From assembly GCA_027364875.1 (NCBI GenBank), contig DAHXON010000009.1, forward strand, positions 913 to 64,912: a DNA stretch of 64,000 nucleotides. Direction: 5' to 3'. Shown here piece by piece: positions 14,678 to 19,895 of this stretch (position 1 is the first letter of the stretch; the number at the start of each line of letters is the position of its first letter). Under the pieces are notes generated by a model. It was given only the letters and a program-made list of their open reading frames with translations. It was not told where the DNA came from and did not search any database. Source of the DNA: Chloroflexota bacterium (GTDB taxonomy: Bacteria > Chloroflexota > Limnocylindria > Limnocylindrales > CSP1-4). The position numbers and the translations under genes were made by a program.

Positions 14678-15619
14678 ATGAGCTTCGTACCCGGACTTGG
14701 TATCGCGAAGGGCATGGCCCTGACGCTGCGCCGCTTCTTCGAGCCGAAGGCGACGATTCAGTACCCGGAGACCCAGCCCGACGTGGCGGTCCGTTTCCGC
14801 GGCCGCCTCCAGCTGCTCTACGACGAGGGGGGCAACCTAAAGTGCGAGACCTGCTTCCAGTGCGCCCAGGCCTGCCCGGTCGAATGCATCGACATGGGCG
14901 GCTTCGACACCATGGGCCGCTTCCACGTCCACTGGGGGGAAGCCGAGCAATACGGCGAGCGGCGCGAGGAATCCGCCCTGCGGCGGTCCGGCCGCCCGGT
15001 CCCCGACCCGGCCTACACGCACTTCGCCCCGCTGGACGTCGCGGCGGTCGATCGCATCGCGGCCGACCACGACTTCGACCCCAAGCGGACGCTGCCGGTG
15101 CTCGAGGCAATCGAAGCGGAGTACGGCTTTCTGCCGGTGGCGGCGCTCAAGCGCTACAGCCAGATCTCCGGCGCGCCCTACGCCCTGCTCTACGGACCCG
15201 CGAGCTACTACCGCCACCTGCACCTCCAGGATTCCGGACGCGTAGTTGGCGTGTGTGGCTGCCCCTCCTGCGCTCTGGCAGGGAGCGGCCGGATCGCCCG
15301 GGCGCTGGCCGCGGAGCTTGGCACGGAGGTCGGCCGCAAGCCCGAGAGCGGCAAGCTCGCCCTGGAGTATCTGCCGGTCCACATCCCCGGAGCGGCCTCT
15401 CCGCTGATAACCCTCGACGGCGAGCCGCAGGCGGTCACGCGCGAGAACGCGGCGGCATGGGTGCGAGCGGTGGCGAGCGGCGCCACTCCCGCCACTTCCG
15501 CCACTCCCGGTAGGCCCGCCACTTCCGCCGGGCCCGCCGGCGCGCGGCGCCGTGCCAACGTGTCCGGACCGAGCGGCGCCGGCCAGAAGGGCGCCGCCCC
15601 TCGGAGGCCGCAGGCATGA
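14678..15619 (+). CDS. chimeric subunit: NuoI N-terminal half (single 4Fe-4S motif) fused to a NuoE-like thioredoxin-fold domain
   Basis: 313 aa; TLRRFFEPKATIQYPE..RFRGRLQL..CETCFQCAQACP (only one CxxCxxCxxxCP motif), then LPVLEAIEAEYGFLP..ASYYRHLHL..VVGVCGCPSCALAGSG..LITLDGEP aligning with NuoE/Nqo2; Ala/Pro/Ser-rich tail. Confidence 0.8.
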   Translation: MSFVPGLGIAKGMALTLRRFFEPKATIQYPETQPDVAVRFRGRLQLLYDEGGNLKCETCFQCAQACPVECIDMGGFDTMGRFHVHWGEAEQYGERREESALRRSGRPVPDPAYTHFAPLDVAAVDRIAADHDFDPKRTLPVLEAIEAEYGFLPVAALKRYSQISGAPYALLYGPASYYRHLHLQDSGRVVGVCGCPSCALAGSGRIARALAAELGTEVGRKPESGKLALEYLPVHIPGAASPLITLDGEPQAVTRENAAAWVRAVASGATPATSATPGRPATSAGPAGARRRANVSGPSGAGQKGAAPRRPQA

Positions 15620-16967: not shown

Positions 16968-19895
16968 ATGCCAGACTTCAACCCCCGCCTGAGCCCCGCC
17001 TCCCCGCCCAGCGGTCAGCCGCCTCGCAAACGGTCCACGAGTCGCGGCAAAGCGGCCGAGGACGGCGGAAAGCCGCCGGTGCCGACCGATGCGCTGCCGG
17101 CCGCCGGCACGGCGCCTGCCGCCGGTGCCACGGCCGCCCCGGCCGTCGCCGAAGCTCGCGCCGCGGGGATCCAGGCGCCCGTCTCGATCAACCCGCTGGC
17201 GCCCGCGTCCGCTTCGTTCGAACGGTCCCGCAGCGGAGCCGACCACCCCGAGCTGAACCTCCGCTACCTCCGGCCGGCGCCCGACCAGAAGGAGACGTGG
17301 AACCGCCAGGCCGCCCTGGTGGACAGTCGCCCCGACGACAAGGCTCCGGTGGACACGGTCTTCCCGCTCGACGAGTCGCACGCGGAGAAGCTGATCACGA
17401 CCCAGGCGCCCCAGCGGCCGATCGCCACGCCCGCCTTCCAGGTCCAGATCGATGGCCGCGTGCTGCCCGCTTTCGAGGGCCAGACGATCCTGGAGGTCTG
17501 CAGGGCCAACGGCATCGAAGTCCCGACGCTCTGCTACGAGCCCAAGCTACCCGGGTTCGGGGCCTGCCGGATGTGCGTCGTCGAGGTGGAGGGCGAGGAG
17601 CATCCGCCCATCTCGTGCTCCCGCACCGCCGAGCCGGGCATGGTGGTCCAGACCCAGACCGAGAAGGTCCGCCGCCTCCGCCGCACGAACCTGGAGCTGA
17701 TCTTCTCGGATCACAACGCCTACTGCCTGCCGCCCTGCCAGAACAAGTGCCCGAGCCACATCGACATCCCGGGCTTCCTCAAGGCCAACGCCGAGGGCAA
17801 CTTCCGCGAGTCGGCGCGCATCTTCAAGCGGACCATTCCGTTCCCTTCGATCCTGGGCCGCGTCTGCCCGGCGCCGTGCGAGGAGCACTGCCGCCGCGAC
17901 GAGGTGGACGAAGCGATCGCCATCCGAGACAGCCACCGCTACCACGGCGACGTCGTCCTGCGCGAGCAGAAGGAAGGAATCGCCCCGCCGCTGCCGTTCG
18001 AAATGGAGCCCAAGAGCGGCAAGCGGGTGGCGGTGGTCGGGTCGGGGCCGGCCGGCATGTCGGCGGCCTACTACCTGCTCATGTCCGGCCACGACGTGAC
18101 GGTCATCGAAAAGGATCCGGAGCCGGGCGGAATGCTCCGCTACGGCATCCCCGAGTACCGCCTGCCCAAGGCCGACGTTCTCGACCCCGAATACGAGGCC
18201 GTCTGGCGCCTGGGCGGCCGGCTCGAGTGCAACAAGATGCTGGGCCGAGATTTCTGCCTCGAGGATCTCGAGAAGGAAGGCTACGACGCCACGGTTGTCG
18301 CTCTCGGCTGCTACACGACGAACAAGCTCGGCGTCGAGAACGAAACCGCCGACGGCGTCATCGACGGGCTCGAATACCTGCGGACGGCCACGCTCGGCCT
18401 GCCGTATCCGGGCCACAAGGGCAGCCGGGTGGTGGTCGTTGGCGGCGGTTTCACCGCGATGGACTGCAGCCGCACGTCGGTTCGCCAGGGCGCAAAGGAA
18501 ATCACGCTCGTCTACCGGCGCGACATGAAGGACATGCCCGCCGAGAGCGAGGCCCACGAGGCCCTCGAAGAGGGCGTCAAGATGATCTTCGAGGCCGGGC
18601 CGACGCGCGTCGTGGTCGACGGCAACAACAAGGTCACGGGCATCGAGTTCATCCGCATGCAGCCGGGCGAACCGGACGCGTCGGGCCGGCGACGCCCCGA
18701 ACCGGTGAAGGGCAGCGAGTTCGTCATCGAGTGCGACCGTGTCCTCCTCGCCATCGGCCAGACGCCGGACCTCTCCTGGATCGGCTCCGGGGACGAGGGC
18801 GTGGAGGGCAATCGCGGCCGGCTCAAGGCCGACGCCGTGACCTTCGAGACGGGCCGTCCGGGCGTCTTCGGCACCGGCGACATCCGGATCGGGTCCGCCA
18901 CCGTCGTCCAGGCGGTCGCCGAAGGCCGCCGCTGCGCCTATGCGGTGGACGCGTACCTGAAGGGCAACGACCTCTCGGAGCTGCGCGAGCGCCAGACCCT
19001 CGCCGAGGTCCAGCCGACGTTCCTCTCGATCGTGCCGTTCACGGACGAGCCCAAGGAAGCGCGCCACCGGCTCCGGGCCCTCCCGGCGAAGGAGCGGCGC
19101 AAGAACTACGACGAGTACGAGATCCCGTACACCGCCGCGGAGGTCATGGCCGAATCCACCCGCTGCCTGCAGTGCACCTGCGAGGCGGTGGGCTTCTGCG
19201 ACCTGCGCCGTCTGGGCATCGAGTACGGCACCACCCTGGCCAACCTGGAACCGGCCCACGACCAGGGCGCCGGGTTCCGGAGCGTCACGGAGAACCGCTT
19301 CACCGGCACGAACCACGACTACATCCGCGACGACAGCCACGCCTTCATCCTGCGCGAGCCGTCCCGCTGCATCGACTGCGGGCGCTGCGCCAACGTCTGC
19401 GCGGAGGTCGTCGGGGCCGCCTGCTACGACTTCATGCGAACCGGCTTCGACACCCTGGTCACGACGCCGCTGGACATGAGCCTCAACGACACTCCGTGCG
19501 TCTCCTGCGGTCGATGCGCCGAGACCTGCCCCACGGGCGCGCTGATGCCCAAGCCGCGGGTTCTCGAGAAGTACGACGTGGACGAGAGCCGCTGCATCCT
19601 GTGCGGCATCTGCGTGGACGCCTGCCCGTACGACGCGCTCCGAGACGGCCAGGACAGCGAGCTGTCGCATACGTCTCGCGCCAACCCGGAGATCGACCTG
19701 ATCGCCATCGCCGATGTGGAGCGGGAAACCGAGGTCACCTACATTCAGCGAGAGCGAGACTGGATCGCCCGAGCCACGGCCGAAGGCCGGCTCCAGGTGC
19801 CCAATTACGACCTGCCCGAGCTTCCGGCGTCGCTGGTCTCGGCGGGCTCGAACGGCAACCGGGGCGGCGGCGGCCGGGGCGGCAAGAAGCCATGA
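16968..19895 (+). CDS. NuoG-N-terminal-like Fe-S protein with embedded GltD-type FAD/NAD(P)H oxidoreductase module and a C-terminal NuoI-C-half-like 4Fe-4S motif; no molybdopterin-type domain
   Basis: 975 aa, ATG 8 nt after the nuoF-like stop. 2Fe-2S domain ([38 protein letters not shown]..ISC). GltD signature ([77 protein letters not shown]). Then [37 protein letters not shown], then [17 protein letters not shown]. Confidence 0.85.
   Translation: [975 protein letters not shown]

What the first reader, a model, noticed from the sequence alone, without database searches (positions are those of the whole stretch)
14678..19895. nuoI appears split, with a NuoE/NuoF/NuoG-like cassette sitting between its two ferredoxin half-motifs
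Seen: the 313-aa product of 14678-15619 starts like NuoI (TLRRFFEPKATIQYPE..RFRGRLQL..KCETCFQCAQACPVECI) but has only one CxxCxxCxxxCP motif. After a ~50-aa linker it continues as a NuoE-type domain. The missing second NuoI-type motif occurs 4 kb downstream, at the extreme C-terminus of the 975-aa protein (..[34 protein letters not shown].., nt ~19551-19712). It follows a complete 8-Cys NuoG-type segment ([11 protein letters not shown]...[12 protein letters not shown]), so it is an unpaired third motif. Its flanks mirror the Nqo9 pattern Y-x-I-x3-RCIFCGLCEEACP-x2-AI. The genes are tightly coupled (ATGA at 15616-15619, 8-nt gap at 16960-16967) and nuoJ follows directly. Known: canonical NuoI is a single ~160-180-aa 2x[4Fe-4S] ferredoxin in which each cluster (N6a/N6b) takes Cys from both motifs. 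Known operon orders are ABCDHIJKLMN (11 subunits) or ABCDEFGHIJKLMN (14 subunits). Inference: an electron-input cassette lies inside nuoI, giving NuoI(N)-NuoE-like and NuoG-like-NuoI(C) chimeras. N6a/N6b would then form across two polypeptides, with the input module covalently tethered to both halves. I am not aware of this architecture having been described.
Basis: partly seen in the sequence, partly recalled or inferred. Interest (0 to 1): 0.9.

Follow-up and report, generated by a model that had tools for sequence, protein, structure and literature searches.

The report
Split NuoI around Stn-like cassette
In this Chloroflexota (Limnocylindria) complex I operon, the essential iron-sulfur subunit NuoI is encoded as two halves fused to the first and last proteins of a three-gene NAD(P)H-oxidising module, an arrangement kept in hundreds of species and not found in the papers I could search.

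Summary
The operon reads nuoA-B-C-D-H, P1, P2, P3, nuoJ-K-L-M-N, and there is no intact nuoI in the 64-kb window.

- **The two halves.** P1 residues 12-74 match positions 1-62 of the NuoI profile TIGR01971. P3 residues 864-906 match positions 71-113. Joined in silico, they give one continuous NuoI match (E 1e-29).
- **Conservation.** The architecture occurs in at least 514 matching stretches of species-representative genomes, almost all Limnocylindria. All eight Cys of the two half-motifs are invariant, so this is not a misassembly or a pseudogene.
- **The cassette.** It is not a plain NuoEFG set. Its closest solved relatives are the StnABC/NfnABC transhydrogenases. P3 is a NuoG-like Fe-S domain with an inserted GltD-type FAD/NADPH domain and no molybdopterin domain. 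P2 is a stripped NuoF-like protein with altered flavin-site and N3 residues.
- **A second context.** The same split pair flanks a similar cassette inside a pyruvate:ferredoxin oxidoreductase operon of Thermoleophilia.
- **Best reading.** This is a proton-pumping NAD(P)H:quinone oxidoreductase whose input module is tethered through a NuoI reassembled from two chains.
- **Not tested.** Inter-chain cluster assembly, donor specificity, and whether a second nuoI exists elsewhere in the genome.

The parts
10178..10534 (+). nuoA
   Evidence: NCBIfam NuoA models, E 7e-26
10525..11250 (+). nuoB, the N2-cluster subunit, with an N-terminal extension of about 80 aa
   Evidence: TIGR01957 at 213 bits, above its cutoff, matching residues 81-223. 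The start codon was chosen.
11253..11825 (+). nuoC
   Evidence: TIGR01961, E 1.7e-31
11834..13144 (+). nuoD, with an N-terminal extension of about 75 aa
   Evidence: NF008974, E 3e-132; the match starts at residue 76
13141..14670 (+). nuoH, with an N-terminal extension of about 110 aa that contains a 33-bp repeat
   Evidence: NF004741 at 312 bits, above its cutoff; tandem repeat at 13166-13258
14678..14911 (+). P1 residues 1-78: the NuoI N-half. It comprises an N-terminal helix, the TIQYPE and RFRGR motifs, and the first motif C56/C59/C62/C66-P.
   Evidence: Matches TIGR01971 positions 1-62 of 121, E 1.8e-13. NuoI chains are the top PDB hits. The Cys are invariant in 76 of 76 orthologues, and this is the best-conserved part of P1.
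14912..15031 (+). P1 residues 79-118: conserved linker (…RFHVHWG…ERREESALRRSGRPVPDP…)
   Evidence: Per-column conservation of 0.66-0.79 across 76 orthologues. It is also conserved in P0123 and P0138 at 38-48% overall identity.
15032..15487 (+). P1 residues 119-270: NuoE/BfuC-like thioredoxin-like domain. The canonical second Cys pair is missing; C193-x-C195-xx-C198 and H235 are conserved instead.
   Evidence: PF01257, E 4.5e-13. Best PDB hits are NfnC, HydC, 9bov_C and StnA. Ligand conservation. AF2 pLDDT is about 90 for this domain.
15616..16959 (+). P2: NuoF/BfuB-like core (FMN domain, SLBB, N3 domain). It lacks the extra N- and C-terminal Fe-S domains of BfuB.
   Evidence: Pfam PF01512, PF10531 and PF10589 only. 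TIGR01959 scores 337 bits, below its cutoff of 559. Best PDB hits are 9bov_B and StnB at about 1e-99. Motif deviations are listed.
16968..17417 (+). P3 residues 1-150: poorly conserved N-terminal region rich in Pro and Ala
   Evidence: Conservation of 0.08-0.5; AF2 pLDDT below 45
17436..17660 (+). P3 residues 157-231: N1b-type [2Fe-2S] domain (C189, C200, C203, C217)
   Evidence: PF13510, E 1e-19; Cys invariant
17715..18977 (+). P3 residues 250-670: GltD-type module. It has two [4Fe-4S] sites (C253/257/261 and C300/304/308), an FAD motif GSGPAG, and an NAD(P)H motif GGGFTAMD…YRR.
   Evidence: PF14691 and PF07992; PRK12814, E 9e-165. It aligns with the GltD domain of 9bov_A and StnC. Cys invariant.
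19164..19199 (+). P3 residues 733-744: CxxCxCx5C cluster site, where the NuoG-like domain resumes after the GltD insertion
   Evidence: Aligned with the same motif in 9bov_A; invariant
19347..19544 (+). P3 residues 794-859: complete 2x[4Fe-4S] ferredoxin domain of HydA/NuoG type (C801/804/807/811 and C844/847/850/854)
   Evidence: PF22117 Fer4_Nqo3 and TIGR02512; Cys conserved in 52-53 of 53 ingroup sequences
19557..19802 (+). P3 residues 864-945: the NuoI C-half. It comprises YDVDESR, the second-type motif C876/C879/C882/C886-P, the sequence YDAL…SELSHTSR…IDL, and a conserved tail.
   Evidence: Matches TIGR01971 positions 71-113 of 121. The Cys are invariant and the tail is conserved to about residue 945. 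It aligns with the C-half of single-chain NuoI proteins.
19948..20496 (+). nuoJ
   Evidence: NF005163, E 1e-36
20493..20804 (+). nuoK
   Evidence: NF004320 at 108 bits, above its cutoff
20809..22764 (+). nuoL
   Evidence: NF005141 at 724 bits, above its cutoff
22777..24360 (+). nuoM
   Evidence: TIGR01972 at 545 bits, above its cutoff
24407..25867 (+). nuoN
   Evidence: TIGR01770 at 421 bits, above its cutoff

Best explanation
This is a complete complex I operon of a Limnocylindria-type Chloroflexota bacterium. The canonical NADH module (NuoEFG) and the single-chain NuoI are replaced by one three-gene unit placed where nuoI normally lies.

**Shown by sequence.**
- P1 is the NuoI N-half, then a conserved linker, then a NuoE/BfuC-like domain.
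- P2 is a NuoF/BfuB-like core.
- P3 is a NuoG-like Fe-S domain with an inserted GltD-type FAD/NAD(P)H domain, followed by the NuoI C-half.

**Inferred: how NuoI reassembles.** In a 2x[4Fe-4S] ferredoxin fold, each cluster takes three Cys from one motif and the CP-Cys from the other. This is established knowledge for the fold. The two halves must therefore come together between chains to rebuild the N6a/N6b pair on NuoB, NuoD and NuoH. That would tether the whole input module to the Q-module by both of its end proteins.

**Inferred: electron path.** NAD(P)H, most likely NADPH, is oxidised at the FAD of the GltD domain, as in StnC. Electrons then run through the Fe-S chain of P3 into the rebuilt N6a/N6b, on to N2 in NuoB, and to quinone. 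This drives proton pumping by NuoH and NuoJ-N.

**Role of P2 and the NuoE-like domain.** They are retained under selection but are remodelled. One N3 Cys is lost, the NADE Asp is replaced by Tyr, and half of the N1a ligands are replaced. They may supply a second (NADH) site or serve mainly as scaffold. Flavin-based bifurcation of the Bfu type is unlikely, because P2 lacks the extra BfuB cluster domains.
For: - **Complementary NuoI matches.** P1 residues 12-74 match profile positions 1-62, and P3 residues 864-906 match positions 71-113.
- **In-silico join.** The joined halves give one continuous NuoI match over positions 1-113 of 121, at 102 bits and E 1e-29. All top-ranked families are NuoI.
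- **Alignment with real NuoI.** The join aligns colinearly with nine single-chain NuoI proteins at 30-39% identity and keeps every invariant residue.
- **No other NuoI locally.** There is no other ferredoxin motif in the window. There is no intact NuoI-like ORF in 1.38 Mb of related loci.
- **Intact operon.** All ten other nuo genes are present.
- **Conserved order.** The same gene order is seen in a 940-kb contig and in every complete locus of about 80 species genomes. At least 514 matching stretches were found in species-representative genomes.
- **Conserved ligands.** All eight half-motif Cys and all other P3 ligand Cys are invariant or nearly so (52-53 of 53). The N-half is the best-conserved part of P1.
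- **Co-occurrence.** The N-half and the third motif occur together in three divergent lineages: Limnocylindria, L003 and the Thermoleophilia POR operon. The third motif is absent from the Stn-type A subunit 9bov_A, the closest solved relative of P3.
- **Cassette identity.** Best solved relatives are 9BOV chains A/B/C, StnABC (8OH5) and NfnABC (9N5U). In StnC the GltD domain is described as binding FAD and NADPH and passing electrons along the NuoG-like Fe-S chain (PMC10482914).
- **Single-chain model of P1.** The NuoE-like domain is confident (pLDDT about 90). The N-half is disordered on its own (pLDDT below 50), as expected for a half-fold that needs a partner.
Against: - No structural test of the inter-chain pairing could be run.
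- Neither half alone reaches the NuoI family cutoff, and nor does the join (102 bits against a cutoff of 113).
- The rest of the genome could not be searched, so a second, intact nuoI or a canonical nuoEFG set elsewhere is not excluded.
- Donor specificity (NADPH or NADH) rests only on motif conservation with StnC and GltD.
- P2 keeps a mostly canonical FMN loop in most orthologues, and its N3 region is under strong constraint. NADH oxidation at P2 may therefore still be the main input.
- All members are from uncultured MAGs. There are no expression or biochemical data.
Confidence: 0.65

Rival explanations
1. The architecture is the same, but the physiological donor is NADH, oxidised at an FMN in P2 as in ordinary complex I. 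The GltD-type FAD domain of P3 would then be an auxiliary site. It might be regulatory, an NADPH side entrance, or an outlet that lets the complex act as a membrane-linked NADH/NADPH transhydrogenase.
For: - Most Limnocylindria P2 orthologues keep the canonical GRGGAGFPTG FMN loop, GEET and the acidic residue equivalent to Thermus E97.
- The N3 region CGK(T)IPCRIG is almost invariant.
- P2 still scores 337 bits against the NuoF model.
- In StnABC both nucleotide sites are active (PMC10482914).
Against: - The second N3 Cys is Thr or Ser in 60 of 68 orthologues.
- The Asp of the NADE motif is Tyr in 59 of 68.
- The Glu of the NNVET motif is Gln, Ala or Val.
- The window's own P2 has a derived FMN loop, GRGFPGVP.
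- P2 evolves faster (45-72% identity) than P3 (71-84%).
- The NuoE-like domain has lost two of its four canonical ligands.
Confidence: 0.2
2. The two half-motifs do not pair with each other. Each binds a single cluster using other ligands, or is a vestige. A separate intact NuoI encoded elsewhere completes this complex I, or the genome has a second, canonical nuo operon that does the work.
For: - The rest of the genome was not searchable.
- Neither half reaches the NuoI cutoff.
- Extra conserved Cys exist that could in principle act as ligands: C70 in P1 and C819 in P3.
Against: - Both halves and their NuoI-specific flanks are under strong purifying selection in hundreds of species.
- The halves always co-occur.
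- No nuoI lies between nuoH and nuoJ, or within 10 kb on either side, in any locus.
- The extra CPxxC Cys is also present in ordinary single-chain NuoI proteins, for example P0238, P0239 and P0255.
Confidence: 0.1
3. The complex is a true Bfu-type confurcating enzyme (a Nuo-Bfu). It would oxidise NAD(P)H and reduced ferredoxin together to drive quinone reduction.
For: - The cassette's closest solved relatives are the bifurcating StnABC, NfnABC and HydABC enzymes.
- Nuo-Bfu complexes have been proposed for other phyla (PMC9304861).
Against: - P2 is only 447 aa and has no ferredoxin-type or N-terminal 2Fe-2S domain. These carry the extra B clusters that non-bifurcating BfuB homologues lack, according to PMC9304861.
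- The BfuC-type [2Fe-2S] site is remodelled.
- The Thermoleophilia POR-linked relative does keep the full 634-aa BfuB. The loss here is therefore specific to this lineage.
Confidence: 0.04
4. The split is an artefact: a misassembly, a frameshift, or a decaying pseudogene cluster.
For: None beyond the fact that all the sequences come from metagenome assemblies.
Against: - The gene order is identical in independent assemblies, including long-read contigs of 0.9-3 Mb.
- Gene junctions are tight.
- The ligand residues are invariant.
Confidence: 0.01

Closest known systems
NuoI / Nqo9 / TYKY (NDUFS8), the N6a/N6b subunit of complex I
   Same: - The N-terminal helix, the T-x-Q-Y-P-E and RFRG motifs and the first CxxCxxCxxxCP motif are in P1.
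- The Y-x-(I/V)-D-x2-RC sequence, the second motif, ACPxDA(I/L) and the (F/S)E(L/M)xxxxR tail are in P3.
- The pair sits between nuoH and nuoJ.
- The in-silico join aligns colinearly with single-chain NuoI at 30-39% identity.
   Different: - The two motifs are on two polypeptides separated by 4.7 kb that encodes three other redox domains.
- Each half is fused to another protein.
- The break lies in the inter-motif loop.
- Scores are below the family cutoff.
StnABC (Sporomusa ovata, PDB 8OH5), NfnABC / Nfn-Bfu (PDB 9N5U) and the related complex 9BOV
   Same: - Three-subunit set: a NuoE-like protein, a NuoF-like protein, and a NuoG-like Fe-S domain with an inserted GltD FAD/NADPH domain.
- P3 residues 158-886 align with 9bov_A at E 9e-167.
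- P2 aligns with 9bov_B and StnB at about 1e-99.
- The NuoE-like domain's best hits are NfnC, HydC and StnA (PMC10482914).
   Different: - Those enzymes are soluble and bifurcating.
- Here the B subunit lacks the extra Fe-S domains, and the C-type subunit has lost two cluster ligands.
- The A subunit lacks the molybdopterin-like C-terminal domain.
- The two end proteins carry NuoI halves, and the genes sit inside a nuo operon.
Nuo-Bfu, a proposed complex I with a BfuABC input module (Schut et al. 2022, PMC9304861)
   Same: A complex I operon in which a Bfu-related module takes the place of NuoEFG.
   Different: - Nuo-Bfu is described for Deferribacteres, Proteobacteria, Planctomycetes and Nitrospirae as a 14-subunit Nuo-Bfu (A-N) with the BfuABC genes in the middle of the cluster.
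- The paper never mentions NuoI or a split of it.
- The paper's BfuB data set required a 4Fe-4S ferredoxin-type domain in BfuB, which P2 lacks.
- No GltD domain is described for Nuo-Bfu.
Por-Bfu (PMC9304861) and the Thermoleophilia POR cluster found here (L085, L088)
   Same: L085 and L088 encode porG-porD-porA, then [NuoI-N-like + NuoE-like], then [BfuB-like], then [StnC-like + NuoI-C-like + PorB]. NuoI is the top family for both halves.
   Different: - The partner enzyme is soluble (POR).
- The N-half lacks the TxxYPE membrane-arm contact motif.
- BfuB is full length (634 aa) and canonical at all cofactor motifs.
- The split-ferredoxin feature is not mentioned in the Por-Bfu description.
Other non-NADH input solutions of complex I relatives: FpoF in F420H2 dehydrogenase, ferredoxin-dependent NDH-1, and 11-subunit complex I
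   Same: A conserved Q-module and membrane arm combined with a lineage-specific electron-input device. This comparison rests on my own knowledge.
   Different: Those systems keep an intact NuoI/FpoI/NdhI and attach the input module non-covalently.

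Membership tests
NuoI (TIGR01971; complex I subunit I) | Two CxxCxxCxxxCP motifs in one polypeptide of about 140-200 aa | tested here: not met
   P1 has one motif and P3 carries the matching second-type motif; there is no two-motif ORF in the window. The feature is met only by the sum of two chains.
NuoI (TIGR01971; complex I subunit I) | Family-specific N-terminal region (helix, TxxYPE, RxRG) before motif 1, and the YxIDxxRC / ACPxxAI / FExxxxR context of motif 2 | tested here: met
   Profile positions 1-62 are matched in P1 and 71-113 in P3. 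The invariant residues G12, T26, Y29, P30, R41, G42 and L46 are kept in the alignment with single-chain NuoI.
NuoI (TIGR01971; complex I subunit I) | Score above the curated cutoff (113.05 bits) | tested here: not met
   P1 scores 50.2 bits and P3 scores 44.8 bits. The in-silico join scores 96.8-102.3 bits.
NuoI (TIGR01971; complex I subunit I) | Gene position between nuoH and nuoJ in a nuo operon | tested here: met
   The N-half starts 7 nt after nuoH. The C-half ends 52 nt before nuoJ.
NuoI (TIGR01971; complex I subunit I) | Binds clusters N6a and N6b and bridges NuoG to NuoB | not testable with these tools
   This needs a co-fold, cryo-EM or EPR.
Canonical N-module NuoE/NuoF/NuoG | NuoE with four Cys ligands of N1a (CxxxxC…CxxxC) | tested here: not met
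   The second pair is absent in the window and in all Limnocylindria. Instead, C193/C195/C198 and H235 are conserved. TIGR01958 scores 41.8 bits against a cutoff of 142.
Canonical N-module NuoE/NuoF/NuoG | NuoF with the canonical FMN/NADH motifs and four Cys for N3 | tested here: not met
   TIGR01959 scores 337 bits against a cutoff of 559. CGKCxxC is replaced by CGKTIPC, NADE by NAFQ (NGYE in most orthologues), and NNVET by HGPQT.
Canonical N-module NuoE/NuoF/NuoG | NuoG with a molybdopterin-like C-terminal domain | tested here: not met
   TIGR01973 scores 94 bits against a cutoff of 470. The best matched stretch is the N-terminal Fe-S part (residues 159-283). No molybdopterin family appears among the top 25 Pfam families shown.
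Bfu family (StnABC / Nfn-Bfu), as defined in PMC9304861 | BfuB with additional cluster domains (N-terminal [2Fe-2S] and C-terminal 2x[4Fe-4S]) | tested here: not met
   P2 is 447 aa with only PF01512, SLBB and PF10589. Compare the 634-aa BfuB of L085, which has PF01257 and Fer4 domains.
Bfu family (StnABC / Nfn-Bfu), as defined in PMC9304861 | BfuA of the Nfn/Stn type: a NuoG-like Fe-S domain with an inserted GltD FAD/NADPH domain | tested here: met
   P3 residues 158-886 align with 9bov_A at E 9e-167, with NfnA at 1e-144 and with StnC at 1e-141. PF13510, PF14691 and PF07992 are present.
Bfu family (StnABC / Nfn-Bfu), as defined in PMC9304861 | Electron bifurcation or confurcation with ferredoxin | not testable with these tools
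   This is a biochemical property. The structural prerequisites in BfuB are missing (see the BfuB row of this family).
Nuo-Bfu (PMC9304861) | 14-subunit Nuo-Bfu (A-N) with the BfuABC genes in the middle of the cluster in place of NuoEFG | tested here: not met
   The order here is ABCDH-[P1 P2 P3]-JKLMN, with no separate nuoI gene and a split NuoI.

The most novel reading that the evidence does not exclude
The unit [half-NuoI + NuoE-like | NuoF-like | NuoG/GltD-like + half-NuoI] may be a portable plug-in redox cassette. Its two ends would re-form a NuoI-type 2x[4Fe-4S] ferredoxin between chains. That ferredoxin would act as a universal connector wiring an NAD(P)H module to different partner enzymes. 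In Limnocylindria the partner is the complex I Q-module, giving an NADPH-linked, proton-pumping complex I that may be the only complex I of this abundant freshwater and soil class. In Thermoleophilia the partner is pyruvate:ferredoxin oxidoreductase. It would be the first natural example I am aware of in which a core complex I subunit, and a dicluster ferredoxin fold, is assembled from two polypeptides.
Probability: 0.5. Interest if true: 0.85.

Novelty: new variant of a known kind. Interest (0 to 1): 0.72.

Why it matters
- **NuoI as a two-chain subunit.** NuoI (TYKY, NDUFS8) is one of the 14 universally conserved core subunits of complex I and is treated as an indivisible dicluster ferredoxin. 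A lineage-wide natural split, with each half fused to a different subunit of the electron-input module, would show that N6a/N6b can be built across a protein interface. It would also give a new covalent solution to how input modules are attached during the modular evolution of complex I.
- **NADPH as a donor.** The GltD-type FAD domain suggests a proton-pumping complex I that accepts NADPH. That would change how the redox balance and energy yield of Limnocylindria are modelled. These bacteria were recovered here from many lake, soil, peat and fen metagenomes.
- **Annotation.** Current pipelines label the three proteins "NAD(P)H-dependent oxidoreductase subunit E", "FAD-dependent oxidoreductase" or "formate dehydrogenase major subunit". 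On such labels no nuoI is called in this operon, so genome-based metabolic reconstructions may score complex I in this class as incomplete.
- **A reusable connector.** The recurrence of the same split pair in a POR operon hints at a connector that could be of interest for engineering electron-transfer chains.

Tried and rejected
1. **Chimeric fold.** I tried to fold P1(1-92), a linker and P3(860-955) to test the pairing directly.
2. **AF2 of P3.** With 38 orthologues the mean pLDDT was 46 and the whole Fe-S C-terminus was below 50, so the model is uninformative.
3. **AF2 of P1.** It shows only that the NuoE-like domain folds and that the N-half is disordered alone. This is consistent with the pairing hypothesis but does not decide it.
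4. **Locus search with a diverse alignment.** Alignment A1 had no conserved stretch usable for the search. Whole genomes could therefore not be screened for a second nuoI or nuoEFG.
5. **Literature.** Searches for a split or fused NuoI, for Limnocylindria complex I, and for Stn or Bfu together with complex I found no description of this architecture. One search was too broad to be useful.
6. **Third motif as a molybdopterin-domain cluster remnant.** I considered that it might be the remnant of the 4Fe-4S cluster that follows at this position in StnC, as the tail of the 9bov_A alignment suggests. I rejected this. That cluster has a CxxCxxxC pattern, whereas the motif here is a ferredoxin-type CxxCxxCxxxCP whose top family is NuoI.
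7. **Halves as HycF/EchF or PorD type.** NuoI models outrank the formate-hydrogenlyase and PorD models by many orders of magnitude for the N-half. They also rank first for the C-half.
8. **Misassembly or pseudogene.** Rejected on the basis.

Full report
**What is in the sequence.** The + strand between 10.2 and 25.9 kb carries a tightly packed operon:

| Gene | Coordinates |
|---|---|
| nuoA | 10178-10534 |
| nuoB | 10525-11250 |
| nuoC | 11253-11825 |
| nuoD | 11834-13144 |
| nuoH | 13141-14670 |
| P1 (313 aa) | 14678-15619 |
| P2 (447 aa) | 15616-16959 |
| P3 (975 aa) | 16968-19895 |
| nuoJ | 19948-20496 |
| nuoK | 20493-20804 |
| nuoL | 20809-22764 |
| nuoM | 22777-24360 |
| nuoN | 24407-25867 |

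All ten flanking genes match their Nuo families in NCBIfam, several of them above the curated cutoffs. A six-frame scan of the whole 64-kb window finds only four CxxCxxCxxxC[P/A] motifs. One is in P1 (nt 14843) and three are in P3 (19368, 19497, 19593). There is therefore no ordinary two-motif nuoI in the window.

**The two NuoI halves.**
- P1 residues 12-74 match positions 1-62 of the 121-position NuoI model TIGR01971 (E 1.8e-13).
- P3 residues 864-906 match positions 71-113 of the same model.
- When the fragments are scanned alone, NuoI models are the top-ranked families for both.
- The best PDB matches of the N-fragment are NuoI/TYKY chains, aligned over their N-terminal half.
- For the C-fragment, polyferredoxins score higher because of their many repeats. 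The single-stretch matches in complex I chains fall exactly on the second motif.
- Joining P1(1-78) directly to P3(861-…) in silico gives one continuous alignment to TIGR01971 positions 1-113 (102 bits, E 1e-29). The curated cutoff is 113 bits. All leading families are NuoI.
- The joined sequence aligns colinearly with nine single-chain NuoI proteins at 30-39% identity. It keeps every invariant column: G12, T26, Y29, P30, R41, G42, L46, both Cys quartets, and the ACPxxA and ELxxxxR contexts.

The break lies in the loop between the two motifs. This loop varies in length among the single-chain NuoI proteins in that alignment.

**It is a conserved architecture, not an artefact.**
- P1-type fusions are abundant in public data and are named only "NAD(P)H-dependent oxidoreductase subunit E".
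Those listed are nearly all Limnocylindria/Chloroflexota MAGs, including Ca. Limnocylindrus, Ca. Aquidulcis and CSP1-4, some on contigs of 0.9-3 Mb.
- Every locus long enough shows P1-P2-P3 in the same order. A 940-kb contig shows the full nuoABCDH-P1-P2-P3-JKLMN order.
- Across 53-76 orthologues, the four Cys of the P1 motif and the four Cys of the third P3 motif are invariant.
- The NuoI N-half is the most conserved part of P1. The P3 tail after the motif is conserved to about residue 945.
- No intact NuoI-like ORF occurs in 1.38 Mb of fetched loci, apart from PorD in the POR clusters.

**What the cassette is.** That is correct at the superfamily level, but the closest solved relatives are a different trio:

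| Protein | Best solved relatives |
|---|---|
| P3 residues 158-886 | 9bov_A (E 9e-167), NfnA 9n5u_A (1e-144), StnC 8oh5_C (1e-141) |
| P2 | 9bov_B and StnB (about 1e-99); the best true NuoF scores 2e-76 |
| NuoE-like domain of P1 | NfnC, HydC, 9bov_C and StnA, ahead of NuoE |

According to the StnABC structure paper, StnC is a NuoG-like Fe-S domain with an inserted GltD-type domain. That domain binds FAD and NADPH and feeds electrons along the Fe-S chain (PMC10482914). P3 has the same layout:
- an N1b-type [2Fe-2S] site;
- the GltD module, with two [4Fe-4S] sites, GSGPAG, and GGGFTAMD…YRR;
- a CxxCxCx5C site;
- a complete HydA/NuoG-type 2x[4Fe-4S] domain. All the ligand Cys of these sites are invariant or nearly so.

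Where StnC continues into a molybdopterin-like domain, P3 instead carries the NuoI C-half.

P2 is a stripped core. It has only the FMN, SLBB and N3 domains, without the extra Fe-S domains of BfuB. It also deviates at key positions:
- The second N3 Cys is Thr in 57, Ser in 3 and Cys in only 7 of 68 orthologues.
- The Asp of the NADE motif is Tyr in 59 of 68.
- The Glu of the NNVET motif is Gln, Ala or Val.
- The window's own FMN loop is GRGFPGVP, where most relatives have GRGGAGFP.

The NuoE-like domain has lost the second Cys pair of N1a. It has an invariant C193-x-C195-xx-C198 plus H235, present in 74 of 76 orthologues. P3 is the slowest-evolving of the three proteins (71-84% identity). P2 is the fastest (45-72%).

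**Relatives outside Limnocylindria.** An exhaustive search of cluster representatives found full-length fusions down to 28-33% identity.
- Two lineages (L002; L003/L004) sit after nuoH in nuo operons. The L003 P3-like protein also ends in …YTLDVSRCIFCSECVEVCPHNAL. These lineages keep more of the N1a Cys ligands: all four in P0211 (L002), and three by inspection of the alignment in P0217 (L003).
- A third lineage, assigned by NCBI names to Thermoleophilia/Actinomycetia MAGs, is not in a nuo operon. Its order is porG-porD-porA, then [NuoI-N-like + NuoE-like, 280 aa], then [full BfuB-like, 634 aa], then [StnC-like + …FRVDESRCIMCRECVGVCPVDAL… + PorB TPP domain, 1060 aa]. Here too, NuoI is the top family for both halves: E 1.7e-9 for the N-half and 1e-11 for the C-half.
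- The N-half and the orphan third motif therefore co-occur in three divergent lineages. The third motif is absent from 9bov_A, where a CxxCxxxC cluster follows instead.

This co-occurrence is the strongest indirect argument that the two halves are functional partners. It also suggests that the cassette with its two NuoI-like ends is a transferable unit.

**How it most likely works.** In a dicluster ferredoxin fold, each [4Fe-4S] takes three Cys from one motif and the CP-Cys from the other. This is established for the family. Neither half can therefore complete a cluster in the canonical way on its own.

The inference is that the P1 N-half and the P3 C-half reassemble a Nqo9-like domain carrying N6a/N6b on NuoB, NuoD and NuoH. 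Both ends of the input module would then be covalently tied to the Q-module.

Electrons most plausibly enter at the GltD-type FAD, with NADPH suggested by conservation of the GGGxxAxD…YRR segment with StnC. They would then run through the P3 Fe-S chain to N6a/N6b, on to N2, and to quinone. P2 and the NuoE-like domain may offer a second, NADH-linked site, or may mainly provide structure. Bfu-type bifurcation is unlikely because the BfuB-specific cluster domains are absent.

The AF2 model of P1 is consistent with this reading. The NuoE-like domain has pLDDT of about 90, while residues 23-108 fall below 50 when modelled alone. This is weak evidence. The decisive co-fold could not be run, and the P3 model was unusable.

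**Comparison with what is known.**
- Schut et al. 2022 (PMC9304861) proposed Nuo-Bfu, Por-Bfu and Mbh-Bfu enzymes. Their Nuo-Bfu is a 14-subunit enzyme from other phyla, with the BfuABC genes in the middle of the cluster.
- Their BfuB data set required a ferredoxin-type domain that P2 lacks. The paper never mentions NuoI.
- Searches for a split or fused NuoI and for Limnocylindria complex I found nothing.
- JGI's automatic names for P3 orthologues begin [quoted passage not shown] (truncated in the output). This suggests that the NuoI/HycF-type COG was detected but never interpreted.

I therefore class this as a new variant of a known kind. It is complex I with an alternative, Stn-derived input module and a naturally split core subunit.

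**Limits.**
- The rest of the genome could not be searched for another nuoI or nuoEFG.
- All members come from uncultured organisms.
- Donor specificity and inter-chain cluster assembly are inferred, not shown.

Noticed in passing
window 6891-8105 (+); L001 3678-4931: A MidA/NDUFAF7-family SAM-dependent methyltransferase (PF02636, E 1.8e-51) lies about 2 kb upstream of nuoA. A PF02636-family gene also lies directly upstream of nuoA in the related 940-kb contig. In eukaryotes, to my knowledge, this family is a complex I assembly factor that methylates the NuoD homologue. The conserved linkage to a bacterial nuo operon may be meaningful.
   Followed up: partly
window 26288-26569: A tandem repeat of 81 bp x 3.5 copies (89% matches) lies just downstream of nuoN, with an overlapping 42-bp periodicity. 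Its function is unknown.
   Followed up: no
window 13166-13258 and 15481-15538: Two short in-frame tandem repeats. A 33-bp x 2.7 repeat lies in the N-terminal extension of nuoH (an EQPQ…AAEP peptide repeat). An 18-bp x 3.2 repeat lies in the non-conserved Ala/Pro/Thr-rich C-terminal tail of P1.
   Followed up: no
window 10525-10760, 11834-12060, 13141-13470: NuoB, NuoD and NuoH carry N-terminal extensions of about 80, 75 and 110 aa relative to their family profiles. The related contig L001 has similarly long proteins, but the divergent L002 lineage has normal lengths. The extensions might be docking elements for the unusual peripheral module.
   Followed up: partly
window 15254-15382 (P1 residues 193-235): The NuoE-like domain lacks the second canonical Cys pair of the [2Fe-2S] site. 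It has an invariant C-x-C-x2-C (C193, C195, C198) and a nearly invariant His235 (74 of 76). This may be a re-wired 3Cys+1His cluster site, or the cluster may have been lost.
   Followed up: partly
L085 1804-7726; L088 7849-15802: A Thermoleophilia/Actinomycetia POR operon has the cassette inserted between porA and a PorB domain. The order is porG-porD-porA, [NuoI-N-like + NuoE-like], [full BfuB-like], [StnC-like + NuoI-C-like + PorB]. The same split ferredoxin pair therefore exists outside complex I.
   Followed up: partly
window 8112-9593 (-): A 493-aa multi-pass membrane protein with no Pfam match lies between the MidA-like gene and nuoA, on the opposite strand.
   Followed up: no
L003 2811-4217; L087 953-2257: In another nuo-linked lineage, the NuoF-like protein has lost a different N3 ligand (CGRCIPG, where the third Cys is replaced by Gly). 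This suggests independent erosion of the N3 site once the cassette is attached to complex I.
   Followed up: no
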